Origin: Marsupella aquatica
Lineage: Eukaryota > Plantae > Marchantiophyta
Assembly: GCA_973895155.1 (NCBI GenBank)
Contig: OZ316892.1
Span: forward strand, 27,179,233-27,243,232
Reading direction: 5' to 3'
Length of the DNA: 64,000 bases
In this document: in pieces, positions 14,573 through 36,488 of the stretch
How the letters are laid out: each line of letters starts with the position of its first letter
Numbering within the stretch: position 1 is the first letter of the stretch
Notes under the pieces: generated by a model
What the model saw: only the letters and a program-made list of their open reading frames with translations
The model's database searches: none
What the model was told of the DNA's origin: nothing
Translations under genes and position numbers: made by a program

Positions 14573-16269
14573 ATGAGGAATTTGAGAGCTCCACCCACGG
14601 AGAAAGCCAAAGCGAGCTCTACTCCCGTGAAGAGTGAAGTGAGGAGATCCAAGAGGAAAGATTTGTCGATCGCTCTGAAGCCCCTATGGCCTGAACTCCC
14701 AACCGGATCAGAAGAGAAAGAGAAATTGAGAGCCGATCTTGAGAAGATGGGATGTAGAAATCTGTCACTCCTGACTTGGGCATGGCAGAGCGAGGACGTG
14801 CTTCGTGAACTACTCACCGGTGAGATTCCTAGCGAATTCACCAATACCATCAGAGCCCAACCAAAGCTGTGGACGAAGGAAGTGGTTGGCAAAGCTCTTG
14901 GTGTGAGCACCGATGGCACTGGTCTGCTCCCTAGAGGAGAGAACCTCACTTCTGATTATTTCACTGGGAAGATGGATACCAAGGAAGGTTGGACTCTCAA
15001 CCAGTGTGTACACGATGACTTACGAAGAGTGCTCGCTTTCTTAGTTCCCCTGTTGCATCCTGAGAAGCCCAAACGTGTCACACAAAGAATTGGAAGTACT
15101 GCCATCGCTTCTCTCTTCAAAGGGAAGGCCAATTCCTGGGCTACTATCTTTGTGGAGATTCTTTAGAAGCTAGTAACCAGTTTGTCTGGGAAGTCTGCCA
15201 ATCCTCTGTCTTCCTACTTGGTCCACCTCTACGCCCATGTGGGAGTCTTGTTCAAACAAGAAAAGAATCTCTTGGGAACCAAGAATAGCTATGTTCTTTA
15301 TGGAGTGCCTGATCCGGAGTCCATCAAGTTGGAGGACTCTGAAGAGGATGAGGAGGAGCCAGTGATACAAATTGTTGAACCGGCAAAGCGCCAAAAGCTT
15401 ATTTTAGGAGGAAATCCGGTTCAACCGGCCAGCGCTTCCACTCCCACTTCCGGTTCGCTTTCAGAGTCTTCTCAGAGCCATTTTTTGTTGATCCAACGGG
15501 AGATAGAAGCAGTGCAAGTGAAGATGGGAATCATGGAGAAGAATCTGTCCAAGATGGCCCGAATAGCAGGTGTGCCAGTTTCAGACCTGATATCCCATTT
15601 CGAGCAAGTGATTGAATCAGCCGGCAACAAGGAGAAGGTGGAGAGAATGGAAAAGAACCTCAAGGAGAAGTCTAATAGACTCAGAGATTGTGAAGACCAG
15701 CTGAAGGAGAGAAGACAGAGGAGTAAAAGGAGGAAGAAGCCATTGAGAGTCTGGAAGATTTGGTGGATTGTTTAGACCCTTTCCTGAACACCAGAGGTAG
15801 AGATTTGGTTCAGACAGAACTCTTTCGAGAGTACTTTGTAAAAGTACCCAACCCTACTTGCCTTGCCACTGTCATTAAGATCTCTCAGGACTATGGAGAT
15901 AAGCTTGAAGATTATTTGGCTACCATGAAGGAGATTTTAGAGTAGATAAAGACTCTACAACAAGTATGGTTCAAGGATGATGAAGAACCAAGAGAGTACA
16001 GCTCACCATCTCCATGATCTGAACCTCCCATTACCCTTGATACTTCTGCTCCTGATTTCACTTCTTCCACAGGAACTTTACCGGGTTCTACCCCTCGGAC
16101 TTCCCACTTGACCTCTTTGATGAATCAGTTTACTTCAAAGCCGATCCTCCCTGGAAACATAATGACAACCGCCTCAGGTATAGCTTATGTCCTGGAGCCT
16201 CTTCAGAGCCAAGTTCCTCCCCCGAATGTCGTTCCTAAGATTTCTGAAGGAACTGAAGCCGCGACTTAA
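14573..16269 (+). pseudogene. Decayed retrotransposon accessory ORF (PEKPxRVT...WA.IF...L..YL.HLY family plus coiled coil)
   Basis: ORFs 14573-15166 and 15182-15775 are in one frame, separated by a TAG; further frameshift and stops follow. The motif LRRVLAFLVPLLHPEKPKRVT resembles accessory ORFs I associate with bryophyte LTR elements. TATA- and polyA-like signals follow at 16500-16610. Confidence 0.55.
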
Positions 16270-16739
16270 CTAATAAATGGTTAAACCGGAAACCTCTTTA
16301 GTTACTAGCCGGTTGAACCGGAATCAGGCTTTTGTCACTCATATCTACTGTAGTTTTGAATAATTTTGTATGACATGAAGATATGATACTCTTACCTTTA
16401 CCTAGTATAAGATAGTCTAGTTTGATAAGATTTATTTACCTTTTGATATTATGAAAATGCATGTCTTTTCATAAGTGTTTTCTCAAGGGGATCTCTCTTC
16501 TATATAAGAGAGAGAGTTTCCTCCTTGAACCTTAGACTTAGGCTTAATATGATTTTCATGAAATTATCTTTCAACGTTAAGTCTCCTTCTCTTTGAAGTA
16601 ATAAATCAATGAGAAGTATACTCTAGTTTTTGGTCATCTATGGTTTGTGATTCAACATTAGTGTGCGATTATCCTTTACTGGAAAAAGCTGTTTGATGTG
16701 ACTAGTAATGCTGGGTTGACCCGTAGGTTGACTAGAAAT

Positions 16740-16950
16740 GTATGCATGAGATCATGCAAAAGCCTATTGATTCGTGTTGACTATAGAGCTCTTGTATTCA
16801 ATGAGGAGCTGATACAAATTCACCACTAGAATTCCATAAATTGCATAGATCCAAAAGAGCAATCTGATGGATTGACTAAAAGAATAAATTGACCATTCGG
16901 AGTGATTAGTACTACCTTGCTTTGACATAGGTCAGAAAATCAATACGGGC
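16740..16950 (+). pseudogene. Highly degraded Gypsy pol scraps
   Basis: Traces of RT (IRVDYRAL) and integrase core (QSDGLTKRIN). Confidence 0.35.
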
Positions 16951-17533
16951 TATCTTATGCTAATCTTTAATTTATAAATTTCTAAGATGGCTGGTTTGAA
17001 GAGGACATGTAGGCATCAGTTTTACATGAGTTTTGACACCGATGATTCTTAATGTACTACCGCTGGCCATAAGTTGTTATGTAGTGATAGGGTGTATTTC
17101 CATCTATAACTCGCTTTCTATCAGTTTTCACGCCGCTGGCTTTTGGTTTTGTTTAGTTCTTTTAATCTTTTGATTGCACTATGGATGATACAAATGTCAT
17201 ACCTTTCATGGAAGTATCATAGAATTCCTTCCATAAACCTAAACATGTTAATAAGGCTTGTAACCTGAGTTTGTTACTCAAAAGTACTCAAAGTATCGTA
17301 ACACAATCTTTTAGGTCTCACAAACTCTTAACGGGAACAAATCTAGGCTATTAAAGAGAAGAATAGTTACTCTTACTCTAAACCCTACTCTACAAGTTCA
17401 ATCCTAACCTGGTTTCATGAGTGACGCGGGATAAGGACAGTGGTATCTTTGACCGGGCCCCGTGCAGACTGATACACGTGGGTCTACTTACAACAGGATC
17501 AACGTTTCATATACGCCATTTTTGCAAAATCTT

Positions 17534-20309
17534 ATGGCTAGAACTAAAAAGCAGGTACTAAGCCAGATTAGGGTAATGCCATAGCTGATTCCCATTGTGT
17601 TCTATGTTGTTTGTATGAAGTCGCGTATCTTGTCCACAACTAAGAAGCTTGTCTTAAACCAGATTAGGGTAATATCATAGTTGAGCTGCATTATTTTATG
17701 CGTTCTTTCTTTCAAGTCCAATATGAAGTGCGACTTATAGCACAACCTCACTATTTGATGCGTGTCATTCGCTGCAGCTTCAACTCTCTCAAGGAAGTTT
17801 TCTAAAGGGGGATGATGGCACTGCAGAGCCGTCATAGTGTCATGACGGCGATGGCAGGGCAAAACCGCCCATGACCAGGCGCACATTGCAGCAAAAGAAA
17901 CTTGGTTTGTCATTGAAGGAGCTCGACATAGAGTCAGACCTTGATGAATTGAATGAGGCACCAAGAAGGCTATCGGGTCATGTGCCTGTAAATTTACCGC
18001 CCCCAAAGTCGACCACAAACTTTGGTAAGTTACCTCCTCGGCGGGTGACACGACAAACAATGTCAAAGGATGCACATATTCAAGAGCATCTTTGGGTTAC
18101 GAGGTCAAGACTCCCAACCGCAAGAGCTAAGAAGGTCCGAAGAAATAAACCTGCAAAGGAGTCTGCAAGTGAGGGCTCTCAGGAAGGCTCTGATAGTGAT
18201 GAAATTCATGCAGCACCCCGTAAGAGAGTAATTAGTTCTAGCAGTGATAGCTCTGAAGATGCTTCCAATAGCAATTCAAAGGATGAAGCACCTCCAAAAC
18301 AAACTGCATTCAGAGTTAACGCACAAAAGGTGAGGGTCACATTCAATGTAACTACGTTCATTTTGCCATCATTTGTTTTCAATATATATGCTCAATCCTA
18401 GCCACTACCCGTTGAACGCAGGCAATAGCAGTTCAGTCCAAACATGGCACTACAACAAAGGGAGATCATTATACATTGTACGCCAATGCAGTGGTGTGCA
18501 AGGTTGCACCTTGCAAAAACCGAGTCTTCAAAACCGAGAGAACTTTTGGAAACCATGTCTTCAAACAACATGGTCTAATTTTGTCCGGGACTTCGGTATC
18601 CCTATATGCCTTGGATAGTGATGATGAGCAGAGACGGCAATAGTATAATGCAAGGAGGAGGAAGCAGCCAGGTGAAGTTGTTTGTGATTCCTACTATGAA
18701 GCCAAGGGTTCCATGCGAGCTAGATGGAGTCAAGCCAAGTACATAATGAGGTAAATTTGCACTCAAGCAATTCAATTAAGGAAATTCCTATGTGCAAGTA
18801 TCCATGTACTACTCATTCTGTACTCACATGCGCTTGATATGTCACATGCAGGGCATGTATATTCAAACAGTTGGTCACAAAATTTGAACAGAACTAATTC
18901 GCACATCCCCATCCAATTGTGGGAGAAGAAGGCCTATTCCTTGTTGTATTCAAGTTTGTGATGCCCGGTCTTGGTTATCATCCATGGAACAGCCTTCTCA
19001 AGGCGACAGATTTCAAGAAATTGCTATGTCTAATCTCTTCCTGCCCTTCTACTTCCGTTGTTGGTTCATGGACTCACAAATTGTCGCAGGAAATTGAAGA
19101 AAGTTCTCATTCGCATTTGGAGAGTGACAACCTTCATGCCTTAAAATCCTCTATTGTTGTGCTTGGCACAATATTCAATGCCACTGTCACTCCGACTAAC
19201 TCTGAGCACTTAAGGCATGCATTGCTCCTGCACAGAGAGAATATTTGTAGGATGCAGTTTCATGGCTTACAAAGAAGAGAGAGGCCATCATGTGGGAGAA
19301 CAACCACGGCTGGAGTGTGTATATGAGAACAAGGCAGAGCAGGAGTACCAAGCATGGAAACATAAAGCAAAACCCAATAGCTATGCCACGACTCTACCTA
19401 ATCTAGTCACTGCATACATGGCACTCATGGGTTGCAGCGAGGCAGAGGCCAAACAACAAGTAAGTACAAATGTTCTCAATTTAGTTTGATGCATGTATGA
19501 TGTTTGTGTATGTGTTCATACCTTTTGTGCTTTTTGTGTTGCAGCCCCTTAATCGTTTGTATAGGTTGTTTAATTCTATTTATTGCTTGTACATGTCCAG
19601 GCCGCAACGGATAGTGTTTGGATTGACACTTCAGATGATGGTGCTGTGCCTAAGGAGCGGAGAACAAAGCCATTACCCAAAGTCAAGAGGAAATTTGTCT
19701 CATTGACCAAATTGGTTTAACGGAAGAAGTCATTTCAGCAGAGACCAACAAATGTGGTGCCCAATTCTGGCAAACCTGTATCACCGGCAGCTATTCCTAT
19801 GTGCAGTAATGATTTTGTGGATGTAACAAAGGAGACGCCCACTTCTCACAAACCTGTTCAATCTAAAAGTCTTCCTATTTTTGATGAATGTGATGTCCAG
19901 TGGCAACTCCCAGATGACCCTGCAACAAAATTGTTTATGCAGACGCTTGATGAATAGGAGCGCGAGCGAGCAGAGTACTACCAAAGGAAGAAACATCAGC
20001 CTATATCTCCCGCACCAGATGACATCGTATCTGCAAGCACGGAAGATGAATTCGCAGTAGAAGAAGCAGACAATTGTGTCAAACTCGGAGGAAGTGCAAG
20101 CGCCAGACCCACCTCCCACTTTAACAAGTGTAGATGATCTTACTTCAACACAAGTGTTGTGTGGGCATGGATCATTTGCAGGAATAACCTTGTCACAATA
20201 TAGTACTCCCCTCCCAGATGATACCGAAAGCAATGGGTCTCTATCCAAGAGGGCACAGCCGCAATTGTGGTCAATTGACACCGATGGTAGTCACATTGGA
20301 TTTGCGTGA
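17534..20309 (+). pseudogene. Decayed multi-exon gene of unknown function with MARTKKQ micro-exon and C2H2-like zinc finger
   Basis: Exon 17534-17554 (MARTKKQ|GT) splices in frame to 17778 and ORF 17871. Exon 18422 encodes CKVAPCKNRVFKTERTFGNHVFKQH (C-x4-C-x13-H-x4-H). Several in-frame TAG/TAA stops are consistent with CAG/CAA transitions. Confidence 0.55.
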
Positions 20310-20729
20310 GCCATTGGCAGATGATCAGCTGAATGACAACTATAACTTATCTTCCCTAGTCAATATTTTTCTAGAATCGATACATTTATTAGTTTTGTAC
20401 ACTAAATAACTAATTAATATAAATTGTACACAAAACAAAAAAATTCAATTAAAAAAAGCATTCCTTTCAAGAGTACCGAAGCTTTTGTTATTTTGTCCTT
20501 GATCTCATCGTGCTTAATTGTGTTTTGATTCGCATTCACCAGCGGACATAGATATTGCAATTGCATGAACTTCAGTGGCGACAACGCTTCTACCGAGACC
20601 CCCAGGTCCTGATTTTCTAATTATAAGATACTATAACAATGACTATCCGGCAATGTGAAGTTTAGCCGGTGAAATTTGATTCCACTCTGCAACATCTCCA
20701 CTCCTTCATTGCACTAGTGGAAAATAGTG

Positions 20730-21350
20730 TCCTTAATGACTAGAATGAGGACTGAAAAATGAGTCATATGTACCAATATATGACTAGAGCTTTTTTGTCA
20801 TACCTGCCTCGTCTTTTAGGACAGTCAATTAAGACAAATGACTAAAACTCTCACCAGTCATTTATGGTAGTCCTAAATGACACAATATTTCTGAAATGAC
20901 ATGTTATCCTAAATGACTGAATGAACGGCCGTCAGTCATTTAGGCATGTCTTTAATGACACATATTTAAACAAATCATATTACAACACATGGCAACTACG
21001 CACGGTTGTCATTATATGTCATTTCAGACATGTCATAAATGACACAATAATAAATCATTTAAGGTGTCATTTAGTGTGTCATTGAAGGTGTTGTACATGG
21101 TGTCATTAAAAATGTCATACAAGGTGTCATACAAGGTGTCATTGAGAGTGTCATATAAGGTGTCATTGAGAGTCATTGAGGGTGTCATACAAGGTGTCAT
21201 TGAGGGTGTCATACATAGTATCATATAGGGTGCCATACAGGATGTCATATAGGGTGTCATTGAGGGTGTCATACAAGGTGTTATTGAGGGTGTCATACAT
21301 GGTATCATTGAGGGTGTCATACAGGGTGTTTTTAAGTAATGTCATTTGGA
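20730..21350. repeat. CACTA subterminal repeats, including a 12-bp tandem array (GTGTCATACAAG/GTGTCATTGAGG) at ~21060-21330
   Basis: Directly visible periodicity next to the CACTA terminus. Confidence 0.85.
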
Positions 21351-21436
21351 ATGTATCTAAGAAGAGCTCATAGTTATATTCAAAATCACATACAATGAAT
21401 CCACTTAAAACCCTAAACAAAGACATCACTTTGTGC

Positions 21437-21580
21437 ATCATCATTGTATTCAGAAATTCACACTCCAACATTCACAAGCTCTAATATAGAATAATTGAAA
21501 AAACAGAAATCATCATTGTATTCAGAAATTCATATTCCAACATTCACAAGCTCTAGTATAGAACAATTGAAAAAACAGAA
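21437..21580. repeat. Tandem duplication, 72-bp unit x2
   Basis: ATCATCATTGTATTCAGAAATTCA...GAAAAAACAGAA at 21437 and 21509. Confidence 0.9.
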
Positions 21581-21675
21581 GTCTTTATGATGAAGTGATA
21601 GAAAGTACACATTTTTCACTCGCATGAGTGAAACAATGGTAACCAAAATATTCAAAAATTCTTTGTTCTACATGA

Positions 21676-24123
21676 TCAGAGAAAATGTTCAACACTTCCC
21701 AAGAAACCTAGCATTCCACAATGTACATTCATTCCTAACACATTCCGTAAACAGAGTTGTTTCTCTTCTTTGTTGGGCATTGGCAATGCTGCATCACCAC
21801 AATACACTGCCTTAACTGATACTCGCACCCAAGGACTCTCAATCATGACACAATGAAATTTATCCTCTCCTGGTAACCCTGTCACTTCACCTCTAGCAAC
21901 AACTGTAGAGCGATCCACAACGCTTCGTACTTCTACAGCATCTCCTTTTGAAAACTGCCACACAAAATTGTTAGGACAAAATACTGTCTTGTAGTACTGA
22001 TTTGGGCATATCATCAATTTAAGAACATAAGCCAACTGAAAACAAATTCACCTTTGCTACTGGATTTGGGGAGAGAACTGGTCCTCATTCACTAGGTGAG
22101 ATAGTGATAGGGGTTGATTTCTTGAATCTCTTTGAAGGCCTAGGTGGTGTAGCCTCTTGTTCCTGAATTGCATTTGACACTATCTGTTCATCTGTGACAG
22201 CAATCTCATCACTCTCACCATTACCAATGCTCCTTTGTACAACGCAAGGTTCCTGCAGTGCTCCCAAATTTGCTTCTCCCATACTTGGCTTTGGCTTCTG
22301 CCTTGTTAAAGTATCTGATTTCTCTCGTTGTGATACAGGATTCTCCCCTGAAGAAGGTACCACAAAACCAAACAATGAATGCTTAAAAAACTTCATTCTA
22401 AATTGAAAAATAAACTATTGCATATGTAATATGTTTAGAGTATAAGTTTGTATGTTCTTACCATCACCATCACCTGAGAAAGTAAGAGAACGTTTTCTAC
22501 TACTACCTTTAGGCTCAACCACCACCTTAGTAGCAATTGCATTTGATAATTGCATATGAAACTGATTCTGTTGATTTTGTGCAATGAAAGAGGTCATCAT
22601 AGATGTCAAATTGTCCACTTTGAACTCAAGCTTGGTTAAATTCTCCATAGACTGTTCAAGCTTGAGTAATCGAGCTGGTTCCTCAATTGTAGTTTCCCTG
22701 GACAATGGAGTCTACATACACAAACACACCATACAATGTCAATCATCAATGATAATTTGAACATCATGGATAACTGATAATCAAAATTGAATATATACAC
22801 AGGTTTTCATTACATACCGCTGATCCATGTGCAGACTGATCCAATTCCAACAAAACTACTGCCTCGATGTTCACCACTGCCCATAGATGGACTAATCTGC
22901 ACTGGGGGGACTGGACTACTAGACACAAGTTTTGATATAATAGGGCTCATCATTCCTTTTGCTTTCTGGAAACACATAATCACATTCAAAGCAATTAGAA
23001 TATTAATGAGAACTCATCATGTCATTGTTTATTCCTATACTAGATAAACACTTCAATTCAAATGACAATCTAGACCTGCAGTGAGATGGACCATCTGAAG
23101 ATTCTTACCAATCTTTTTTCTGCTCCAGCAGCCCCTCCTCTTCCAAAATGCTCTTTGTTCACCACTTCTGCCCTCCTTGCTTTCATCACAGCACTCCTTG
23201 CAAGCAAAGCAGGACTATCAAAATGATCCACCAGTCGTGCCCATTTCAATGGGTCAACATATTGAGGTCTTGGTTTGGAGCGATCACGTTTACATACATC
23301 CTTCCAATAAATATTTAGTTTGTGACGTTCTCTTTTCAATAACGTCCGATAGTGACTAATAAATTTCTTGTCAGACACTGACTGCTTATCTAGATACTCC
23401 CAATCTGCCTCCATCAATTTCTGCACATCCTCAATTATGTTTGGATCTTGTTTGTTCCAATCAGGTTCTGATACATCAAAAAGCCTCAAGACATTGGCAC
23501 GTAGCTCCTCCATCCAATATGGTTTATTAGGATGAGAATCATCAATATCATTGTCATGAATCTGAAAAAAACACCACAAATGATAGTCATCAACATTGGG
23601 AATGAAACAAACACCCAATTGTTTCTGAGTACACGAATTATAGGCCACAATATGATATGTGCAATGAAAATCTTACCGTTATCAATTTTCCCTTCTTATT
23701 GTCAGCCCTTCTTGCACTACCGGTTCTCTGAAATTGTTTCTTGGCTTGCCTAGATTCCCTATGTTGCTCTGTTGCAGTCTTTCTTCCCTCTACATACACA
23801 ATGAGCATCCAATATTGATCATCCACAATTGCAAAATGAGGGACAAGAAATATTACAATATAATACCTAGGAGGCTTCATTGAAATTGACTTACCTGAAT
23901 CCTGACTGGATGTCATTACTGCAGAGTACCCAGATTTTCCAATCGATGTTGATGGAACCACCACTATACACATGCAAACCACTGAAGTTTTGAGTCCAAC
24001 ATTCATATAGATCAACATTGAAAAATACATTGAAAATCTTTGAAATTACTTACATTCAAATAGCTGGCCAGTCACAGGGTCTTTGTAACATTGCACCATG
24101 CCACTCATGGAAGGTCCAACCTT
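21676..24123 (-). pseudogene. TnpA/TNP1-like CACTA accessory gene of element A (5'-truncated, frameshifted last exon)
   Basis: Exon 23070-23560 KRERHKL..W..PRPQYVDPLKWARLVDHF..RS..MKARR..HFGRGG is Transposase_24-like. Last exon VVARGEV..KFHCVMI..VRVSV..AALPMP is Transposase_23-like. Both are homologous to the element B TnpA. Confidence 0.75.
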
Positions 24124-24990
24124 CACTAGTAGAAACCGGGGCAATTTAGACCATACCTTATAGGACTATGCCCACTAAGTCCTTTTTCCATACTTAAAAT
24201 GACTCGCACCCATTGCACCGGTTTTGTTGAAGACTAGAAAAGACTATGAGAGTTTTATGGTTCACTAAAAGACTATGAGAAGTAACCTTGCTACTTTGTG
24301 AAGGGTGAATAGTCTAGCACATCATGGGTAATGTTCACTCTATGTTGAGGAGGGGTAATTCTCCTTCATCTTTGAGCCGAAAGCACCGACGTCTATCGAG
24401 TGCCAAAGAACTGCTGGAGATCGAGCGAATTCACACTCTCAAATGTGGGTCGTGTCAAATTGTTTCCTCCATTGATGGCAGCCTTCTGTGAGATTGATTT
24501 ATACTGTGTGGCTATCTGGGAGTTTTGTTGACTCATTTGACACCGATACTCCCGTGATTTCCTCATACATAGTGCCACTGCCCCCCCGCATTGTGTTCAA
24601 TCCCTATAGCTTATAGCTGCACCACTCTTGGTGGCCCTTGCTCATGCCTTGGTTTTTTTTTCTTTTTCCCATTACAGTATACACCCCCTTCTTACTAATC
24701 AGGTGGATTAATTTAGTACTAGACAATGCTTTGACACTTTACACTTACACTATGCTGACCTACTGCGCCTTCTAGTGCTTATTCCCTGTTTTACATGTCA
24801 CGACTATTGTATGTGATTCAAATGCATGAAATGTTGTTGCAGATCTCCTTTGGTGAATCATAGCCACAATTAAAATTGAGGTGTTGGTGGAGAAATTGTA
24901 TTAGGGGATCAGTTTTGTGTGTGGGCTCAACATACCAAAAGTATGTGTGCTCTGCATCCTTGTGTGGCCATTCCAATTCATTGCAGTAGC

Positions 24991-25134
24991 AAATGCCTTT
25001 GTACCTTAAATGCTAAATATATTTTACTTTCTGTGCAGTCTGCTAAATTGTAGAGTCTATCTAAATGCCTTTGTACCTTAAATGCTAAATATATTTTACT
25101 TTCTGTGCAGTCTGCTAAATTGTAGAGTCTATCT
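24991..25134. repeat. Perfect tandem duplication, 72-bp unit x2, just upstream of the PHD ORF
   Basis: AAATGCCTTTGTACC...GAGTCTATCT at 24991 and 25063; each unit contains an acceptor-like TTTCTGTGCAG. Confidence 0.95.
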
Positions 25135-25145
25135 CATGCGCAGGC

Positions 25146-25826
25146 ATGGCACGGCCTAAAATTCAAGCCAAAAAGCATGTGACAGAGGTGAGAAACACAG
25201 GTGTACTTGGGGCAGATGCTACTAACTTCTCTGCAAGTCAGATTTTCCAGAAGGCAGCTCATTGTTGTGCCATTTGTGACGATGGTGGGGGCCTGGTCAT
25301 TTGTGAGGGCCCTTGCATGAGGCATTTCCACCTCAACCCGGAGTCTGACCTTGCTGCAGAAAACAACTGTCCAGGGGTGGGCCTCCCGTCAACACACCAG
25401 GGAGACTGGATGTGCACTGATTGTTTGGAGAAGCAAGCTAAGTGTGCACAGTGTGGGAAGTTGGGGTCCTATGAGGGCTCTGTTGATGCTGCAGCAAATG
25501 TTAGGAAATGTCCAGACCGTTTTTGTGTGAGATTTTTCTGTTTTGAGTGTTTGCCTGCTCATGCCACAGCTTGCCCACTTCATAGGTGCAAGGCATGTGG
25601 TGAGCATGATGATGACTACTGGACTGACATAGTCCACTGTGCTAGGTGTCCCACTATGTGGCACTATCATTGCCTGAAAGATCATCAAGCAGAGGGTTAT
25701 GCTTGTGACAGAGAAATCTATGATCACTCTGCACATGGTGTTGATCGATGGATATTTTATTGTCATCGCCATGCCATTGATCCTACCTCGCGCACTCCTG
25801 TGAGAGATCACATATCTTGGCTGTGA
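25146..25826 (+). CDS. Stand-alone EDM2-like composite PHD-finger protein (CACTA cargo)
   Basis: 226-aa intronless ORF: CAICDDGG.L.ICEGPCMRHFH...WMCTDC..K..KCAQCGKLGS...VRKC...C..FFC..C...CPLHRCKAC...CARCPT.WH..CL...IFYCHRHAIDPTSRTPVRDHI. This is collinear with the Arabidopsis EDM2 PHD region as I recall it (CAICDNGG..CEGSCLRSFH; CPLHKC; CRRCPKSYHRKCL; YCQEHEIDEELLTPVRDHV). Confidence 0.85.
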   Translation: MARPKIQAKKHVTEVRNTGVLGADATNFSASQIFQKAAHCCAICDDGGGLVICEGPCMRHFHLNPESDLAAENNCPGVGLPSTHQGDWMCTDCLEKQAKCAQCGKLGSYEGSVDAAANVRKCPDRFCVRFFCFECLPAHATACPLHRCKACGEHDDDYWTDIVHCARCPTMWHYHCLKDHQAEGYACDREIYDHSAHGVDRWIFYCHRHAIDPTSRTPVRDHISWL

Positions 25827-26364
25827 AGCTGAACATTGTACATGCACAGTGCACCTGATGTGGATGTACTATTTTTTGAGATTGCAGAGATTCCAATTTT
25901 GAAAAGGAGTTGGGTAGGCGAGTTTATATAGGCAGCACTTATCTTGTGCTCTGGCGTCAGTGGCTGGGTACATGCCTATACAAACTTATCCTTACAAGCC
26001 TTCTTGGAAGTATTTAGGCTGAGTGGTCATTTTCATTTTTATAAACACTTTCATCAGACTGCTAAATTAAAACAGGACTTCTAAGTTGTAAGCGTATAAA
26101 TTATCAAGCATGCAATTAATCAAATTGCCCTATAAGTTTGTCATTTGAATGTATCCTCCTTTACAACAAAATATGTATGTGCCATGACAAGTTGGTTGCA
26201 CTTCATTTCACCACGGATATGGATTTTGTAGTATATATTCAAACAATGTCCTGCATCCGTGCAGGTGCCTAGTACGTATTGTTCACATATCCCTTGTACC
26301 TATCAAAATCGGACCTGAGCACCAGTGGGCCAGATCAACTCAAAAAGCAGGAATTTTGAAGAGT

Positions 26365-26778
26365 ATGTTGGCTGAGGAGACGAAGCAACCAACCCCCATT
26401 CTGAAAGGGCTGAGCATGGTATTTGTGGAGGCGGGAATTGGAGAGGTTAAGTGCAAAGTGTACAAGTCCACAGTGCTTGACCTAGGTGGGACAGTGGAGG
26501 AGAATATAACAGAGGACACCACTCATGTCATTACTAAGTCATATCCCAAAGCCTGCCGCAAGTTTGGGAAGGGAGACATTCGCTTTTATGTCATGTCCCA
26601 TAATGTGTTTGTGGTTTCATATGCTTGGCTTGTGGAATCAGTAGCAGCTGGGAAGCGTCAAAACCCAATGGACTATGATCTTTTTGAGGCCTGGCCACGG
26701 AAGGGTCAGGATCCTTACAGAGAGGACTATGAGACAACAAGTGAGGAATGGGTCATTAGCGATTCTGAATCAGAGTGA
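26365..26778 (+). CDS. Stand-alone BRCT-domain protein resembling the N-terminal BRCT of plant DNA polymerase lambda (CACTA cargo)
   Basis: ILKGLSMVFV..G....KVYKSTVLDLGGTV......TTHVI...VVSYAWLVESVAAGKRQNPMDY has the BRCT hallmarks GG, THVI and WxxxS, followed by an acidic tail. The frame is open upstream to a possible acceptor at 26264. Confidence 0.8.
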   Translation: MLAEETKQPTPILKGLSMVFVEAGIGEVKCKVYKSTVLDLGGTVEENITEDTTHVITKSYPKACRKFGKGDIRFYVMSHNVFVVSYAWLVESVAAGKRQNPMDYDLFEAWPRKGQDPYREDYETTSEEWVISDSESE

Positions 26779-27211
26779 GGAGTAGTAGCATCAGTTTGGA
26801 CACAAGTTTTTTTGTATAAATCAGATCATTGAAATAAATGTGATCTTTGAACTAATGTACCTTGTTATGGTTGGTGGCAATTGGGCTTATTTTACTGTTG
26901 GCGGATTGTTGTTTCCTGCTGCCTGGGGGTGTCACTGTAAACGTACATGCAACGGCGGTACATTTGAGGACAGCGGAGGAGGTGGTGACACCCTCCAACA
27001 TTTAGGAATTTTGTGTCATTCACTTGACAATAGGTACACTACTTGCGAACCTGTTTTTTTCTTTTGGGGTGGTTTAGGGTTTGTGAGAATTTAGTACACG
27101 TTATGTTAACTCTTTTGGCAGATACAGTCAGGGATATATGGAACACAAATACCACCATTAGGCATCCTTGTTCACTGCTGTCCATGACTGCAGAGCTCCC
27201 AGCCTGTTACA

Positions 27212-30200
27212 ATGCACCCTGGTCACCACCCTCCCCAGACCCAGCCCAGGGCACAGGCACTGCCTTTGCATCATCCCACAAGGATATCACGCCATGATAA
27301 TAAGCTTTGGCAGCGTGAAAGGTTACGAACCAGACTTTCAGGAGCCAGTAGGATGAGATGTCCTTGTGCAATCTGCCAAGGATCCCGTACCAGGGGTCTG
27401 AATGAGGTTTGGCGGCATATCGCGGTTCATGGAAGAGATCCACGACATCGAGTTTGGAATGATCCTGCAGAGGAAGATTCTTCCGACGAGGAGTGGAGGT
27501 TAGAATTTGATGTTGCCAATGCTGCAAGACGGGCAAGTGAGGTTCTGCCTGGTGCATTTGAAAATGTTGTAGCTGGTCTCTATGGGTTGTCAGCTCTCCA
27601 ACGGGATGGTGCTCAGGCAGCACCACGTGACGAAGGAATTCATGTGGAAGAGATGGTGAGAGACATCTTCCAAGACTTGGATGCATTTCATGATGGGCTG
27701 GACAACGAAGAGGATACGGCTGCAGATGCAAGTGTGCCCCCTATCAAAGAGCCTCTTGATGAGTTTGAGATAGGGCAGGAAACCCCTGGGCATGATGGGA
27801 TGTTTGGCTCTCCCCTGCAAATACAGGAAGGCAGGAAGTCTTTGTACCCCGGTAGCAAATGTTCTAAACTGGGATTTGTCATCATGTTCCTGAACATTTG
27901 CGGCAACCACAATGTCCCCAACGTTTTGGTTTCTGAGTTGTTGGCATTCTTGCGAACAACTATGCTACTAGATGGTAATATTTTGCCCAAGAACATGTAC
28001 GAGGCAAAAAGATGCATATCTAATCTTGGATTGAACTATGATTCGATCCATGCCTGTCCTGATGGGCATGTTCTTTTCAGAAAGGAGTATAAAGAATCGT
28101 TGACATGCCCTAAGTGTGGGAAGCACAGGTATCGGAACTCAGGAAAGTCTATGGTTCCCGCCAAGGTACTTCGTCATTTTCCACTCATTCCCAGACTTCA
28201 GCGGATGTTCAGAAGCCGTGCCATCTCGGAGATGATGACTTGGGCAACTGACAAGAAAAGTGATGATGGCCTACAACGACATGCTGCAGATTCAAGGCAA
28301 TGGAAACTCATAGATGAGATGTATCCCGAATTTGCTGCTGAGCCGAGGAATGTCAGACTTGGGCTGTCATTGGATGGGGTAAACCCATTTGGAGACAAGA
28401 ACAACAAATTTTCGTGCTGGCATGTAACTATTTTGAATTATAACCTTCCTCCTTGGATGACTACAAAGCGATTTTTTGTTCTGATGGTCCTACTGATACC
28501 AGGGCCAGACAGTGCTGTATCTGCCAACATAGATGTGTTTTTGGCTCCCCTAGTGGAGGAATTGAGAAAGCTTTGGGAGGAAGGAGTTCTCACATATGAT
28601 GTCCTACAGAGGCTTGGGAGGTTAAACCCATTCATCCTTAGAGCCATTGTCATTCTGACTATAGCTGACTACCCAGCCCATGGGATGATATCAGGCCAAA
28701 CAACAAAAGGATATTGTGCTTGTACTATCTGTGGGCGCAATGTCACCAGTGAGTACTCCAGAGCCCTGCCAAAAGTGATATACATGGGCCATCGTCGTTT
28801 TCTGAAGGTAGATCACCCTTACAGAGAAAGACAGGCACTGATTGCACACTTTGGCAATGAGATTGAGCAACGTGGACCCCCGACACGAGTGACCAAAGAG
28901 GAGATCAGGCAGTGGGGAGCACTAAGGGATGACTATATCAAACGAGGGGGCAGGGAAGATGGAGTGAGTGATCCAATAAAGCGATATGGTGTAAAAAGAC
29001 TGAGCATATTGGACTTGGAGCTCAAGTACTGGAGGGTAAGCCTCTTGGAGTTGATGCTAATTGGGATACATGTTTTGGTTCAGAGCATGTGCATTCATTT
29101 CGAAGAGAGAGACTAAACTTGAGGCATTTCCTGACGCTTTTGCATTGCAACGATGCAGGAGTTTGAGCCAAGCAAACATAACATTGATGTTATGCACATT
29201 GAAAAGAATATTTGTGAGAGTCTACTCAGATTCTTGTGTGGAGAGAAAGACACTGGTTCAGTGAGATTGGATCTTGAACAGAGGGGAATGAAACCCCATC
29301 TTTGGTTGAGGCCACATGCCCACAGAGCTGATGTGCTCTTGAAGTACCAAGCGCCCTATGTTCTGACAGACATAGAGTGGGAACTATTTGTGCAGAGGTT
29401 GAGTTCTTTGAAGGTTCCTTCAAACTATGGCAGTGCTTTCAAGAAGCATATCATGACTAGAAAGCTTGGTAGTATGAAAAGCCATGACTACCATATGTTG
29501 ATCCAACAGGTGTTGCCTTTATGCTTGAGGGGCTTGTTGCAGAAGCCTGTTCGTACTGTGATCATGCGACTCAGTGATGTGTTTCGTCGTATTTGTGTGA
29601 AGGTTTGGGATGAAACACACTTCCCACAACTGACAAAAGATGTCGCTCAGGTGCTGTGTGACCTAGAGATTTATTTTCCTCCCGCATTTTTTGATGTCAT
29701 GACCCACCTACTTGTCCATGTTGTGGAAGAGCTACACCAATTTGGGCCTGTGAGTGCTCGTTGGTTGTACCCTTTGGAATGGTACATGAAGCTACTCAAA
29801 GGTCACGTGAGAACATATTACAAACCTGAAGCAAGCATGGCTAAAGGTTACATCAAGGATGAGACTCTGGGATTTCTGACCGAATACATAGCACAATATG
29901 AGCATGTGAAGACCAGGGTGTGGAATTCTGATGAGGAGGAAGGGGTGATAGGTGAAGTACTGGAAGGGGCTGCAACCACAAAGAACCTGACCATATCTAT
30001 GAGAGACTTGGCACATGACTTTGTATTGCACAACACTGTGGTGATGGAACCCTGGATACAGTGAGTGCATACATGTGCTATAATCCAGTTCATGAGCTTA
30101 AATGTTGTGTTCGTGTGGTTTTCTCCTTCAGCCTGTTCATGTTTACCCAAGCTAATGCTGTGTGGTTGTTCGTTCAGGGAGTATGAGTCATTGAAGGCGG

Positions 30201-30943
30201 CCCATCCCACTGCAGGAACAACTTTTCCAGGTTTCATGGAGTGGATCAGAGTGGCAATTAGAGAGCATCACGAGACCCACCCAGACATGGATGCAGATGT
30301 TTACCTACTGTCTAATGCCCCTAGCCTGAAAGTGAAGACTTACAAACGGATGAGAGCATATGGGAATCACTTCCGAGTGAAGGATGGTGACAGTGCCTAC
30401 AGGGTGATGAATGACTACGGGCTCATCACTGTATTTGAGCAACAGAGCCACAATCACGACAGGGCCTGGATGGAGATGGGATATGTGGGAGAATTAGTTG
30501 ACATATGGGCTCTGGACTATGGGGCGGTGTCCAGTCCTGTGATTCTTATGAAAGGTTCATGGGTGCGGCAGGATTGGCTTGGTAACAGGGCTACCATGAA
30601 GAGAGACAACGACGGTTTCTTGCTGGCCAATTTCAGAGGGAAATTGCCCGAATGGTCTGAGCCATTTGTGTTTCCTAGTCAGGTGGAGCAAGCTTTCTTC
30701 CTGGATGTGGAAGACTCCCCAGGTTGGCGTGTAGTGTGTCATAAACAGGCCAGGCAACGTCGGATGGAAGGATCAAACCTTGAGTTTCATTTACACTCTC
30801 ATAGTGCCTTTGATCGTCGGCGTTCAGACCAAGTGCCTGTAGTTCATGATAGCGGGGACTTCATTCCTGTGACAAGGGTAGATGCATTTGCTGAAGGAGG
30901 CGAATTCAGAGATGCAGATGCCAACAGTGTGCCTGTGCCATGA
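27212..30943 (+). CDS. CACTA transposase (TnpD/TNP2), three exons, apparently intact
   Basis: Exons 27212-29035, 29159-30060 and 30178-30943 splice in frame. RCPCAIC (Transpos_assoc), IHACPDG..CPKCG..RY, PRNVRLGLSLDGVNPFG, NYNLPPW, DYPA, HNIDVMHIEKN, MKSHDYH, FFDVMTHLLVH (DUF4218) and EPFVFPSQVEQAFF (DUF4216) are all present. Confidence 0.95.
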
Positions 30944-31099
30944 GTAATGTGAATTGTTTGTATGGACATTAGTGAGGGGAAGGATGTGTAATAAAGTAAT
31001 TCTGAAGCAACACAGATGTATGGATGGATGCCTGGTGATTGTGGTTGCATTGTGTTATACGGGGTGACCATAGATGACATGTTTTTGTGGTCCAGTAGG

Positions 31100-34000
31100 A
31101 TGGAACAGAGTGACACAGAGATGTGTGAGTATGAAAGGAAAGCTATGGAACAACGAGCATACGTGAAAGCCAAAATCGCAGAATTGGATCTGGAAAAGGA
31201 TGTGGCTGAATTGTAAGGGAACGATTCTCAACTACACCCCTCCGCTGAGTTTGTGTGACATGAATAGTTCAATGTGGCACTGAAATTGTGACTGTATTCT
31301 CATATTGGAATGTCGCAGAGCCACAGCATTTTCAAAGAAACAAAAGGAGTACGCAAGAAGGGTGACCAGCACTATCTCTGGGCCTGTGCGTCGGAGTGAC
31401 AGGTTGAGCAAGAAGGTCGTACCTACAATGGCAGAATGTGGAGATGACATTGATGCTGCACAGGTGGGTGCAGACACTAGACAAGAAGATGCAGATGATG
31501 AGTATTTTCCAGAGGAAATGGATGAGGATGGGGGTTATGAAGATGAATACATTGCAGAGCAGCCCCAAAAGAAACATGTAAGTAGTTTTCCCAACAAGGT
31601 TTTGAGTTAAAAACTCTTGTTTAGAGGTTTCATATGTTCAGTACTACACATATGTACCTTGCTTAGTTCCTGACATTGTAGTTGGTGATGTGATGCAGCG
31701 TCCTGCCAGTTCTGTTTTGCCTTCGAAGCCTGTGCATGCACCATACCAGCAGGGGGGGCTGACCTCTGATCAAGGTTGGCAAGGTGGTAGTAGTGGTAGA
31801 TCCCAGGCTGGTGCCCAATACTATGGCAGGGGGCAAGCTCTAGGTTATGCCCGTGGTAGAGGCAGAGCAGGTCCAAACCCACAATCTCGTGGGTATGGAT
31901 GTCCACCTCAACCATGGGGATGTGAGTATATATCTATATGCCAGTTCTTTGTGAAGGCATGGCACTCCTGAATTTCAGACTGCATATCAATTTTTGACAT
32001 TGTTTGGGATGTATTGGATTCAGACAACATGAAATTCTGTCCACCTGCCATTGCATGCAGATTCTGCCCAACCTGATTGGGCAAATGCTAGTAATGATCA
32101 GTTCCAATGTCCATAAGGACAGACATGGGTTGAACCAGGTTGGGAGGATGGTGGTGGGTCGTGGAATGAACAAGGTTGGGAAGGTGGTGAAGGTAATTGG
32201 CAGGGATATCAAAATTCAGTACCTACAAACGCTGGAAGAGGAGCAGGTAATGTCTGATCTTGTCAGCAATGGAAGAACTCATTATATGTGGAGTCCATTC
32301 ACGTGGGGGGGACTCTGCACATGTATAATGATAGAAAATGTATGTGTGTAGGTTGGACAGTCGAACCATCGACTCAAGTATTCACTAATGCCCCTATGCA
32401 GATGCAGCACAGAAGGGGGACAGGTATGTCGGTGAATGTTCAATTGTTTTCCTACAGTTTGTACTTAGTTTTCAGTACATATGTTTGCACACACATACCT
32501 AGAAAGTGACATCATCCGGCCCCTGTACTAGGCTGGACAGGTGGTCCAGGGTCGCAACAATTTCAGAGTGCAGTCCCTGCACAGGCATCTACAGGCAGAG
32601 CTACAGGTATGTATGTTTGAAGAATTTTTCTTGAAGTGAAGCATTGAATGTTGCCGTCATCCATTCTGCTATATGTAGTTCTCAAGCATGAATGGCATTG
32701 TATTTTCCCAGGTGGCTTCAGAACCCCAGGTAGGGTGAATGAAGGGGTGGCCAATACAACGCCCAGTACTACCGAGAGTAGTGCACGAGGGGAGGTGACA
32801 AAGAAAGGGAACGTAAAGTTGAATGAGAGACAATGGGTGGATGCTGAGTGTCCTCGCAAGAACCGATGGCATGCTGATTTGAAAGTTGAAGTATTGCGTT
32901 GGTTAGATGTGAGTGTTATTAATTTTAAAAAACAGCATCCAAAAGATTGGAAGACTGTATGTGAAAATGTTGCTGCCAAATGGAATTATGTGGGCAGTGA
33001 TGATGGCGTGGACATAGGTTGCCTAGAGAGTACAGCAGGTAAAATTATCAAGCAAGAGAGGTGGAGAATGCATAAGGCTTGGAAGGAAGGTGGGGAGAAG
33101 CCAGATATGCCTCCACCAGCCAGTTGTGATGATAAAGTGTGGGCAAGGTTAGTAGCTTATTTTGTAATAGATGCTTCAAAAAAGAAGAGTTCACAGATGA
33201 CCGAGGCCAGGTTGAGTGTTCAGAACCCTAATCTGACAGGAAGGACCGGCACTGCACCGACAGCTAAGCGTTTGGTAAGAATGAATGGCCTAGCTATGTA
33301 ATTTATGCTACACTATGTACTATTTTTTAGTGTAAACCCATACATGTAAACTTTGTTTTTTAGTGTACGTTCCCTGAATATTGATCGATAACTTGTGTTT
33401 GCCATGCATGTGCAGAAAGCCCAATTGGGGCAAAGCCCTGCAAAAGAAGAGTTGAGGGCTGAAATTGTGAACACCCGGGCTCAAGAGGGTGCATCTGAAT
33501 CCTCCAAGCATGTAAGTTATATGAGTTCTGATTGGTAATTGAATGACCTGCGTTGAATTTCAGGTGTACACTGTATATAACATTGATTGTGCATATATTG
33601 CCCAACATTTCATATGGAGTGATTGAACCTATACCCCTGTGTCATGTAGGGAGGTGGATCTTCACTTACAGAGATAAGTGGTCGTTTGAAGGCTGTCGAA
33701 ACATGTCTTCCAGAGATCAATGAACGTTTGAATTCATTGACTGACTTGTTCCATGTGAATTTCAAGACATTAATGGAAGCTGTTGTGTCGGTGAGAGATA
33801 AAATTGATTCCAATTCTGTAGGAGTTCCACCATCACCACTTGAGGTGGCAAAGTCGATGCACTCTTCTGGCATGCCAACGACATGTAGGCTTGAAGGTAA
33901 GGCCTTTACAACTGTGTGGGATATGATTATTAAATGTATAGTTTGAATTAACATTGTTTGTTGAATGTGTTATTTTCAGTAACATATATTGTGGTTGTTG

Positions 34001-34806
34001 TGTCCATAGAGAATAAGACAGGTGCTACAGAGAAGAAGTATGAGAACCTGGCAAATACTCGCTGTAATTTAGAGGCAACAAAGTTGCAGTCTATACAAGC
34101 AACTTGTTTGACAGAGGGCAGTCAACCATGTTTGGATGAGGATGACATTGGCAAGGGAGTGGATGATATCAATGTTGGGGCAAATGAGGATATCAGCAAG
34201 CATGACAATGATACCATTGAGCCAGATTCATGCTATGTAGATCTTGACTCCATTGCAGAGATAAATGATTTGCAGAATGTATCATTCTCAATGACAGGTG
34301 TGCCTCTTGTTGAGATAAATCCAACCAAAGAGTTAGTTGGTATGACACTCCCAGGTGATGAACCTGCTACTGTGACAGTCCTAACAGAGGAACCTACTGA
34401 GCCTAGCTTCACTACTGTGAAGAGAGGAAGCATGCGCACACGAGGCAAGTCTGCTGGTGGGAGCAGAGCCACGTCAAAGGTTTCATACAAACCTCCAAGA
34501 ACAGTGCTGGCAGAAAGATCTAAGGTGGAAGTGGGGAAAGCACCTAATGTTGAGGGACAAAGTGGCTTGTTAGCTGTTGATGAGAGTGGAACACGAGTAG
34601 GATTTGCCAGAGTGCAGGTTGGTTCCACAACGTTCCATGGCAAGAGGATTCCCCCAGGTTATTCAGTAGTGTTAGTCACATTACTAGTGAAACCTAAAGC
34701 TGTCCTTCCCATTCCAAACACAAATGATGATCCTCCTCAAAAGACACTTGGAGATGCTGCAGGTTCTTTGGTATTATGGCCAAGCAAGTTCATAGAGGAT
34801 CCATAA
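31100..34806 (+). CDS. TnpA/TNP1-like CACTA accessory gene of element B (multi-exon; exact splicing not fully resolved)
   Basis: Starts MEQSDTEMCEYERK, followed by many small GT-AG exons. Contains a Transposase_24-like block (KQERWRMHKAW..PP..CDDKVWARLVAYF..SSQMTEAR) and a Transposase_23-like end (FHGKRIP..LPIP..TLGDAAGSLVLWP). Confidence 0.8.
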
Positions 34807-35304
34807 CAATGTCATGCCATTATTTGTTTGTAGTGTGAGTCATGTTATGTAGATTTTAGATGTCAAGAAGCAGTACAAGAATCATGTCCTCTTGGAGATT
34901 CATAGTATCATGCATGTGCTTTCAGTTATCTCATCCTACAGTCATCAATTACGAGTTCCTGTTTTGTCTAAATTACATTGATCACATTGTAAACTATTCC
35001 ATTGGAATTCAAATGATCTTCATTTTTTAGCAAGATTGTGATTGTGTTTAATTTTTATGAATGTTTTATGTAGGATCTGCTTATATGATGCTTTGTTTCA
35101 TGTAGATGTCATTCATGCTATGTTCATTTATTGTATTCAATGTGTTATATTTCTAAAGTTAGAACATCAGGTTTCTATGTATTGTAATGTCGAGTGCTCT
35201 CTCTCCTTATGAACTGTCCCTCTGTGTTCATTAGTCATGGTTATAACTTGCATGTGAACCTTATTAGTTATAAACATGAGTATATAGAGTCCCAAATGGT
35301 TCTG

Positions 35305-35645
35305 TTGTGTGACGCGGGCCAGGGTCTCCATTGGTCTCTCCTGTGACACTAAATAGTCACACGCTAGTCGTTGTTGAATGCGGGTAAGTCATGTATGTGA
35401 CTTACGATGTGACTCGCTGAAGTCATATTGCAGTCACGTCGAAACAAGGCTAGACTCCACAATAAAGTCACAGATCAGTCACAAATGGGTATCAAGCAAG
35501 TTGCAAAGCCCAGTATCAATAGTGACTTCCATTTTTTGGTCTCAACTTTTGCAACTCCAAGGGTCACAGCGTGGGTCAAGTCACGTTGAGTCACAATGAA
35601 GTCACATGAGCCAAAATGAGTCATATATTGCGGTCTCAGTTCACC
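35305..35645. repeat. Right subterminal repeats of CACTA B (GTCAC/GTGAC motifs)
   Basis: Many AGTCAC/GTGAC motifs in both orientations leading up to ...TTCTTCTAGTG. Confidence 0.8.
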
Positions 35646-35661
35646 TCGAATTCTTCTAGTG

Positions 35662-36488
35662 AAGGATAGTGTCAGCAGTCTATGGTCAGAGAAGAGGATG
35701 TGTGGGGATTATCGGGCACTCAACCAGGTAACTCAGCAGGATAGATATCATGTCCCCACACCAGAAGAGATCTTTGATGGGCTAGGAAAGTCTCAATATT
35801 TCTCTATTTTAGATCTACGGCAAGGGTTCAACCAAATCATTGTGGTAGAGAAGGACAAAAAGAAGATTGCATTCCATGGCAGTGACAAGTTATGGGAATG
35901 GCTATACATGCCATTTGGCACAATGAATGCAGCCATCTTCTTTCAGAAGGTCATGGATATAGTAAAGGAAGGTGTAGCACACATCAAATATTACATTCAT
36001 GATGTCATAGTGCATAGCCCTTCATTTGACCAGCACATGGATGATTTGGAGGATCTGTTCGAAAGGCTCAGAAAAGCAAATCTCAAATGTCATTCCAAGA
36101 AATGTGAATTTAGGGTGAATACTGTGATCTATCTGGGACACCGAGTGATTCTAGATGGACTCATGCTAGAGGAGGCCAAGGTTCTGACTATCAACAACAC
36201 GAAGGCACCTACAGATTTCAACAAACTATGCATCTTTCTAGGTCTGTGTAATTACTACCACACACATGTTGAGAATTTTAGTACCATTGCAAGCCCTTTG
36301 AATTAGTTGTTGAAAAGGGATACCCCATGGTACTGGACTGTAGAATGGCAGACTACATTTGAAAAGATCAAAGCAGTACTGACCACACACCCAGTTCTAC
36401 ATCAGCCTCATTTCAAGATCCCTTTCATTCTTCACACTGATTGGAGTGCTATTGGTCTTGGAGCCATTATGGGACAACAAGATGATGG
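35662..36488 (+). pseudogene. G1 reverse transcriptase and start of RNase H
   Basis: EKRMCGDYRALN, LDLRQGFNQI, MPFG, degenerate YIHDV, LHTDWSAIGLGA; internal stop present. Confidence 0.85.

What the first reader, a model, noticed from the sequence alone, without database searches (positions are those of the whole stretch)
25146..25826. Stand-alone, intronless EDM2-like composite PHD protein
Seen: the 226-aa ORF keeps the Cys/His array and the terminal YC..H.ID....TPVRDHI motif that I recognise from EDM2, but has none of the flanking EDM2 regions and has shortened loops between fingers. Inference: a minimal reader trimmed to domain boundaries suggests selection on the domain. It could act as a dominant-negative competitor or recruiter of the ASI1-AIPP1-EDM2 complex. 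The lack of introns would fit capture through a cDNA.
Basis: partly seen in the sequence, partly recalled or inferred. Interest (0 to 1): 0.8.

Follow-up and report, generated by a model that had tools for sequence, protein, structure and literature searches.

The report
Transposon carrying a captured histone reader
A high-copy plant jumping gene carries its own trimmed copy of the chromatin-reading part of the host protein EDM2, which likely binds histone tails and would help the element stay active in silenced DNA.

Summary
The 226-aa ORF is real and EDM2-type, but it is not a free-standing host gene. It lies inside a CACTA (En/Spm) transposon, about 24124-35661, ahead of a BRCT ORF, an open 1163-aa TnpD and TnpA. 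In public runs its flank has the same high contig depth as the transposase (1641 against 1554-1782; outer flanks 69-124). All 24 zinc ligands are present and the model folds well (pLDDT 88). It belongs to a family of at least 26 stand-alone proteins, full-length ones mostly about 220 aa (31-81% identity). They form one clade (100/100) inside the EDM2-like radiation, share two derived features, and show purifying selection (dN 0.48, dS 2.49); many copies are decayed. New: 18 of 23 members begin with a motif resembling the histone H3 N-terminal tail. Best reading: a transposon accessory chromatin reader that likely counters silencing of its own element; integration targeting is the main rival. 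Histone binding, expression and contact with the ASI1-AIPP1-EDM2 complex are untested, the donor paralogue is unresolved, and transposon context is shown only for this subfamily.

The parts
25146..25826 (+). Stand-alone EDM2-type triple-PHD ORF, 226 aa
25149..25175 (+). Residues 2-10, resembling histone H3 residues 1-9 (5 of 9 identical: A, R, K, A, K; H3 motif recalled)
25266..25424 (+). PHD1 (C41-C93), most like AIRE/TRIM/CHD-type fingers
25443..25583 (+). PHD2 (C100-H146), with family-specific His-to-Cys132 and 8-residue C135-C143 spacer
25587..25772 (+). Variant PHD3 (C148-H209), followed by the EDM2 terminal motif
24124..24137 (+). Candidate left CACTA terminus; may instead pair with CTAGTG at 24777 (3-bp duplication CTT), making a 654-bp element
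   Evidence: depth step in X1 and X4 only
24991..25134 (+). Perfect 72-bp tandem duplication holding an acceptor-like site, upstream of the ATG
26365..26778 (+). Second cargo ORF, single BRCT domain, 137 aa
   Evidence: PF00533 E 3.7e-8, above cut-off
27212..30943 (+). TnpD transposase; one GT-AG solution (introns 29036-29158, 30061-30177) gives 1163 aa open
   Evidence: PF02992 E 8e-70, PF13960, PF13952
32648..34806 (+). TnpA-like exons
   Evidence: PF03004 E 0.0035, under cut-off; 33% identical to the neighbouring element's TnpA, E 2e-15
35261..35661 (+). Subterminal GTCAC/AGTCA repeats and right terminus
   Evidence: depth drop in 4 of 4 runs
20712..24123 (-). Second, truncated CACTA element (terminus, subterminal repeats, TnpA-like exons), head to head with the first

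Best explanation
The ORF is an accessory gene of a high-copy CACTA transposon with an open transposase, and its triple-PHD product likely binds histone H3 tails on the element's own silenced copies and would help keep them transcribed. Shown: place inside the element, co-amplification with TnpD, intact fold, EDM2-type origin, long-term constraint, H3-like N-terminal motif. Inferred, step by step: (1) an EDM2-like paralogue of a non-seed plant was captured long ago and cut down to its reader module; (2) the protein is made from the element's 5' end and docks on H3 tails; (3) having none of EDM2's other regions, it acts by occupancy or as an adaptor, shielding marked nucleosomes from host readers or favouring full-length, spliced TnpD/TnpA transcripts across H3K9-methylated chromatin; (4) the H3-like N-terminus would act as a switch that folds into its own PHD pocket, or as a decoy for host H3 readers and writers. 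My odds: transposon-borne 0.9; kept by selection for the transposon's benefit 0.7; the anti-silencing mechanism in particular 0.45.
For: Context: TnpD and TnpA domains downstream, TnpD open. Summed contig depth across 24088-35767 is 2005-5772 in X1 (outer flanks 69 and 124), 20459-102286 in X4 (314, 456), 5059-35651 in X2 (106, 312). In X1 the contig just 3' of the ORF has depth 1641 and three TnpD contigs 1554, 1782, 1775. CpG observed/expected 0.22, like the transposon genes (0.26-0.38), unlike two host genes (0.59, 0.74). Constraint: ligands complete in 12 of 17 rows over the positions they cover, 1-2 changed in 5; pN 0.36-0.44 against pS 0.72-0.80 in 3 of 3 pairs, dN 0.48 and dS 2.49 for L001-L002. 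Decay typical of transposon copies: L001 has a premature stop, L002 a frameshift, 8 of 18 homologue rows go out of frame or end early. H3-like motif: [AST]RxK in 18 of 23 family N-termini against 4 of 137 other proteins; mean score 16.5 against 9.3 for shuffled N-termini (highest of 2000: 11.4) and above 1000 of 1000 permutations of the H3 letters. Literature (passages read): EDM2 binds H3K9me2 and its complex suppresses proximal polyadenylation in heterochromatic introns (PMC7529245; PMC10241880); TnpA-activated Spm elements keep H3K9 methylation while transcribed (10.64898/2026.08.24.746577).
Against: No binding, expression or genetic data. Transposon context is shown for this subfamily only: L001 and L002 (1867 and 1495 bp) are too short to show a transposase. 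The 24124/35661 pair has no target-site duplication (CTT, AAG) and is not unique (44 of 4486 pairs match as well); the left end has few subterminal repeats (9, against 33 on the right) and no depth step in X2 or X5. No listed contig bridges the ORF and TnpD; summed depth is not a copy number, and one run may be the window's source. CpG depletion is not diagnostic: a gypsy element in the window has 0.74. The acidic residue before PHD1 (Asp in 38 of 61 other rows) is lost, so specificity may differ from EDM2. The H3 likeness was noticed after seeing the sequences, members are related, H3's Thr3 is mostly absent, the motif follows Met directly in only 11 of 18, 5 of 23 lack it, a basic nuclear-localisation signal could look alike, and several host EDM2-like proteins of non-seed plants also begin Met-Ala-Arg.
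Confidence: 0.45

Rival explanations
1. Integration-targeting subunit: the reader joins the TnpD/TnpA transpososome and steers insertion to marked chromatin, as the RAG2 PHD does for RAG1 or chromodomains do for some retrotransposon integrases (both recalled).
For: Same element as an open TnpD; this copy sits in a nest of other elements; En/Spm transposases share motifs with RAG1/Transib (PMC12730594 passages).
Against: One insertion site says nothing about preference; no contact with TnpD or TnpA was tested; the protein has little outside its zinc fingers.
Confidence: 0.25
2. A host gene family of small PHD readers, one member of which was picked up recently by this CACTA family and amplified as a passenger; the old constraint reflects host function.
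For: Context of the distant members is unknown; short EDM2-like proteins of 260-400 aa are annotated in grasses; a second cargo (BRCT) shows that this element collects host domains.
Against: Many distant members are decayed; none of the 20 of 26 members whose source was shown comes from NCBI or UniRef annotations; the grass proteins fall elsewhere in the tree and keep the His and the long loop.
Confidence: 0.15
3. Neutral Pack-CACTA-type cargo with no protein function.
For: Neutral capture is the commonest fate of captured genes (PMC13317346 passage); many relatives are broken.
Against: Exact domain boundaries, 24 of 24 ligands, synonymous saturation with dN about 0.5, shared derived features across about 37% identity; no close host source (longer hits 26-33%).
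Confidence: 0.05
4. A non-histone role: the fingers bind DNA, RNA or another protein, and the basic N-terminus is only a nuclear-localisation signal.
For: Changed residues before PHD1; fold matches to H3-bound structures are partial (TM-score by query 0.15-0.28).
Against: The acidic residues at 45 and 54 and the aromatic at 88, aligned to AIRE PHD1 (their role in H3 binding is recalled), are kept in nearly all members; the order of the H3-like letters matters.
Confidence: 0.1

Closest known systems
Arabidopsis EDM2 and EDM2-like proteins
   Same: The same 2.5-repeat atypical PHD module and terminal motif; all 26 longer hits carry EDM2-type domains at 26-33% identity; top named host scores are liverwort paralogues.
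   Different: No RFD, acidic, methyltransferase-like or Pro-rich regions; His-to-Cys ligand change; about 20-residue loop deletion; transposon-borne and high-copy.
VANC and KIU/Ulp1 accessory genes of VANDAL Mutator-like elements
   Same: Transposon-encoded accessory gene, captured host domain under long conservation, anti-silencing role (PMC13317346 passages).
   Different: VANC recognises DNA motifs; here the cargo is a predicted histone reader, in a CACTA element; no sequence likeness was found or sought.
TET/JBP dioxygenases of fungal DNA transposons, including EnSpm
   Same: A chromatin factor carried as a separate gene by EnSpm elements, thought to help escape silencing (PMC12730594 passages).
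   Different: An enzyme acting on DNA methylation, in fungi; here a non-catalytic reader in a plant.
PHD fingers in retrotransposons (Chlamydomonas Gypsy-7a; CR1 ORF1) and RAG2
   Same: PHD finger in a mobile-element setting (PMC9940879 figure legend and a reference title; RAG2 recalled).
   Different: Those are single fingers inside larger proteins; this is a separate triple-finger gene of traceable EDM2 type.
NSD2/NSD3 PHD1-3 cassette
   Same: Same three-finger order and ligand pattern (E 3e-11).
   Different: Much lower score, match ends at profile position 175 of 222, His kept, no SET or PWWP here.

Membership tests
CACTA (En/Spm) autonomous transposon | TnpD transposase (Transposase_21, DUF4218, DUF4216) | tested here: met
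   open 1163 aa
CACTA (En/Spm) autonomous transposon | TnpA-like second gene | tested here: inconclusive
   PF03004 E 0.0035, under cut-off; 33% to the neighbouring element's ORF
CACTA (En/Spm) autonomous transposon | CACTA...TAGTG termini with subterminal repeats | tested here: inconclusive
   Right end clear (33 cores in 400 bp, above the 99th percentile; depth drop in 4 of 4 runs). Left end 11 of 14 match, 9 cores, step in 2 of 4 runs
CACTA (En/Spm) autonomous transposon | 3-bp target-site duplication | tested here: not met
   CTT against AAG for 24124/35661; both flanks are cut-off other elements, so this copy looks rearranged
CACTA (En/Spm) autonomous transposon | Dispersed multicopy family | tested here: met
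   Depth about 16- to several hundred-fold above the outer flanks in X1, X4, X2; many variant contigs
EDM2 orthologue | 2.5-repeat atypical PHD module with terminal motif | tested here: met
EDM2 orthologue | N-terminal RFD and C-terminal methyltransferase-like (ELP) domain | tested here: not met
   Absent; no fused family member among 26 longer hits, weak evidence by the tool's own note
EDM2 orthologue | Binds H3K9me2 chromatin; works with ASI1/IBM2 and AIPP1/EDM3 | not testable with these tools
   Feature from PMC7529245 passages
EDM2-like protein family (by descent) | Nested among EDM2-like PHD modules | tested here: inconclusive
   Inside the land-plant EDM2-like group at 86/88, unstarred, stem 2.15; sister to liverwort paralogues at 88 in the quick tree, not in the careful tree; that grouping not rejected, p-AU 0.58. 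No animal NSD row was in the trees.
NSD histone methyltransferases | Closest relatives are NSD PHD1-3; SET/PWWP present | tested here: not met
   46.5 bits against 82-142 for EDM2-like proteins
Pack-CACTA neutral cargo | Non-autonomous element with recent, decaying host fragments | tested here: not met
   Open TnpD; nearest long host proteins about 33% identical; constraint
Transposon anti-silencing factor (VANC-like in function) | Expression de-represses related copies in trans | not testable with these tools
   Needs transgenic work
Histone-tail mimic | Motif matching H3 residues 1-9 beyond composition | tested here: met
   post hoc, related sequences
Histone-tail mimic | Bound or modified by H3 readers or writers | not testable with these tools
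   Needs peptide binding and methylation assays

The most novel reading that the evidence does not exclude
An old lineage of plant CACTA transposons captured the reader module of EDM2, the host protein that manages transcription through transposon-containing heterochromatin, and paired it with a built-in histone H3 tail mimic: a two-part device that reads and decoys the host histone code, the first histone mimic encoded by a transposon that my searches could find.
Probability: 0.25. Interest if true: 0.85.

Novelty: new variant of a known kind. Interest (0 to 1): 0.62.

Why it matters
The transposon anti-silencing factors in the papers I read act through DNA motifs or DNA demethylation (VANC, TnpA, TET/JBP). 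A transposon-borne histone reader taken from the host's own EDM2 pathway would add a histone-level strategy and could explain how CACTA elements are transcribed while still H3K9-methylated. It also gives a small, well-folded natural version of the EDM2 reader for structural work (no EDM2 chain appeared in the PDB searches), and a direct test of histone mimicry by a selfish element.

Tried and rejected
No whole genome was held, so copy census, target-site duplications of other copies and host intron positions could not be examined. No RNA holder listed among 11 runs: no evidence either way on expression. Complex prediction of residues 2-31 with residues 26-226: no answer (score 0.01, mark 0.34, alignments not used), counted neither for nor against. 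VIA-align comparisons and an atlas look-up of the BRCT ORF gave no result. The metagenome scan gave 2 loci from 88 pattern matches, both too short for context. Rejected: terminal exon of a longer EDM2 gene (upstream in-frame stop, shared start in homologues, no EDM2 regions nearby; a weak acceptor at 25143 is not formally excluded); NSD origin; chance ORF. A scan for termini alone is uninformative (44 of 4486 pairs). PMC5584460 and PMC4203584 were not held, so which EDM2 region binds AIPP1 and the exact peptide specificity were not read. Earlier scan notes: nothing. Rows left out of trees: P0010 and P0034 (repeated domains), partial or out-of-frame rows; 79 rows, 50 (P0001, P0009, P0160, P0153 among those dropped there).

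Full report
1. Observation. The ORF at 25146-25826 is as described: 226 aa, uninterrupted, matching three NSD/EDM2-type PHD models in order, each under its curated cut-off. It has 24 of 24 Cys/His ligands. AlphaFold2 with a 78-row alignment gives pLDDT 88.0 and pTM 0.83, low only at residues 1-3 and 10-23. Foldseek's best matches are multi-PHD chromatin readers (JADE1 PZP E 1e-4; NSD tandem PHDs; AIRE), all partial. An in-frame stop at 25116 and the same start in homologues argue against a last exon of a longer gene. Only one loop is much shortened: C135-C143 is 8 residues in 17 of 17 family rows against a median of 28 in 61 other rows.

2. Context. Downstream on the same strand lie a BRCT ORF, TnpD (Transposase_21 E 8e-70, DUF4218, DUF4216) and a weak Transposase_24 match. 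One GT-AG solution opens TnpD to 1163 aa. Candidate CACTA termini are at 24124 and 35661. The match alone is not special (44 of 4486 pairs) and there is no target-site duplication. The right end is well supported by subterminal repeats and a depth drop in 4 of 4 runs; the left end is less sure, and 24124 may pair with 24777, where CTT is duplicated. Of 11 runs listed, 9 hold the stretch or part of it; I laid 4, from 3 studies. Summed depth over 24088-35767 is 2005-5772 in X1 (outer flanks 69, 124), 20459-102286 in X4 (314, 456), 5059-35651 in X2 (106, 312) and 27-1756 in X5 (0, 3). In X1 the contig directly 3' of the ORF has depth 1641 and TnpD contigs 1554, 1782 and 1775, so gene and transposase appear amplified together. 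Depth is not a copy number and no listed contig bridges both. Loose ends at 24785-24787 and a contig that leaves the window's sequence at 24310 suggest subfamilies with different 5' ends over a shared core (inference). A second, truncated CACTA lies head to head on the left and a gypsy reverse-transcriptase fragment on the right.

3. Family. Searches returned 26 short homologues: 5, 13 more among the best 150 of 563 hits, 6 and 2 cluster members, plus locus L001 (L002 encodes the P0122 N-terminus). Full-length members are mostly about 220 aa and end at or just after the RDHISW motif. All 20 whose source was shown come from Logan, JGI or ENA, none from annotated proteomes. They form one clade (16 rows, 95; 13 rows, 100/100) and share a His-to-Cys ligand change (Cys in 17 of 17; His in 61 of 61 others) and the loop deletion. 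Synonymous sites are at or near saturation while dN is 0.48-0.66 (3 pairs). Many members are broken, as expected of transposon copies, but L001 and L002 are too short to show a transposase, so transposon context is shown only here.

4. Origin. The family profile scores liverwort EDM2-like paralogues highest among single-module host proteins (Calypogeia 142, Riccia 138, Marchantia 130 bits), named seed-plant EDM2 82-123, NSD2 46.5. The quick tree joins the family to those paralogues (88); the careful tree leaves it unplaced on a 2.15 stem inside the land-plant EDM2-like group (86/88); the grouping is not rejected (p-AU 0.58, likelihood 2.8 higher). So EDM2-type descent is well supported by scores and motif, the donor is not resolved, and a bryophyte host is an inference. 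The coding sequence is intron-free here and in L001 and L002, while the element's TnpD has introns; that fits capture through a cDNA but does not show it.

5. H3-like N-terminus. Residues 2-10 match histone H3 residues 1-9 (recalled) at 5 of 9 positions. [AST]RxK occurs in 18 of 23 family N-termini and 4 of 137 other proteins; the mean best score is 16.5 against 9.3 for shuffled N-termini and beats 1000 of 1000 permutations of the H3 letters. At the anchor, position 1 is Ala in 12 of 18, position 7 Ala in 12, position 9 Lys in 11; the motif follows Met directly in 11 of 18. The linker after it is variable. Against: post hoc, related sequences, Thr3 mostly absent, 5 of 23 without the motif, likeness to a nuclear-localisation signal, and Met-Ala-Arg starts in several host paralogues.

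6. Mechanism. Most likely (0.45) an accessory reader that counters silencing of its own element. EDM2 binds H3K9me2 and its complex suppresses premature polyadenylation in heterochromatic introns (PMC7529245, PMC10241880, PMC5364540, PMC3632883; passages), and Spm elements activated by TnpA stay H3K9-methylated (10.64898/2026.08.24.746577; passages), which leaves room for such a factor. Rivals: integration targeting (0.25), host gene carried as passenger (0.15), non-histone role (0.10), neutral cargo (0.05). Every step beyond location, fold, descent, constraint and motif is inferred.

7. Known systems and novelty. Captured or accessory chromatin factors in transposons are known: VANC and KIU/Ulp1 (PMC13317346), TET/JBP in fungal EnSpm (PMC12730594), PHD fingers in retrotransposons (PMC9940879). 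I found no report of an EDM2-type PHD gene in a CACTA element or of a transposon-encoded histone mimic in the listings (titles and abstract starts only; one search had no hits); 'PHD' does not occur in the main texts of PMC13317346, PMC13547354, PMC12730594 or the Spm preprint. No supplements were read, Repbase was not searchable, and subscription papers are missing, so prior description is not excluded. It works like a transposon accessory chromatin factor; it is not an EDM2 orthologue.

8. Verdict. Real, constrained, transposon-borne EDM2-type reader; new variant of a known kind; interest 0.62. The most novel reading (reader plus functional histone mimic) has probability 0.25 and interest 0.85.

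Noticed in passing
window 26365-26778: Second cargo gene in the same element, a lone BRCT domain. From memory it resembles the BRCT of plant DNA polymerase lambda, which would suggest recruitment of end-joining repair; the PDB search gave only weak BRCA1/Rtt107/TopBP1 hits. High-depth contigs in X1 and X5 leave the window's sequence at 26358, so most copies may differ just upstream.
   Followed up: partly
window 20712-24123: Second CACTA family, head to head with the first and cut off inside its TnpA region; 12-bp subterminal arrays at 21019-21362; lower depth than the first in X1 and X4, similar in X2.
   Followed up: partly
window 25256-25839: Summed depth over the PHD ORF is higher than both neighbouring bins in 4 of 4 runs; may mean further element families carry the gene, or only more branched contigs.
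   Followed up: no
window 24124-24777: CACTAG...CTAGTG with CTT on both sides: possible 654-bp non-autonomous element at the left end.
   Followed up: partly
   Followed up: no
proteins P0012, P0014, P0015, P0017, P0018, P0024, P0079, P0090, P0118: These long EDM2-like proteins (five named as liverwort or lycophyte) begin Met-Ala-Arg, whereas most seed-plant EDM2 rows begin with an acidic run.
   Followed up: no
window 12785-20400: ORFs without Pfam match (12785-13645, 14573-15166) and a spliced-looking region with Cys/His motifs near 18416-18640; possibly another element's cargo.
   Followed up: no
window 36675-38385 and 54794-56975: Two copies, 90-95% identical, of a repeat with 160-bp internal units, probably long terminal repeats.
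   Followed up: no
window 10309-11049 and 2012-2934: Host gene exons (Zw10-like, weak Pfam match; a membrane-protein-like gene) flank a transposon nest of about 50 kb.
   Followed up: no
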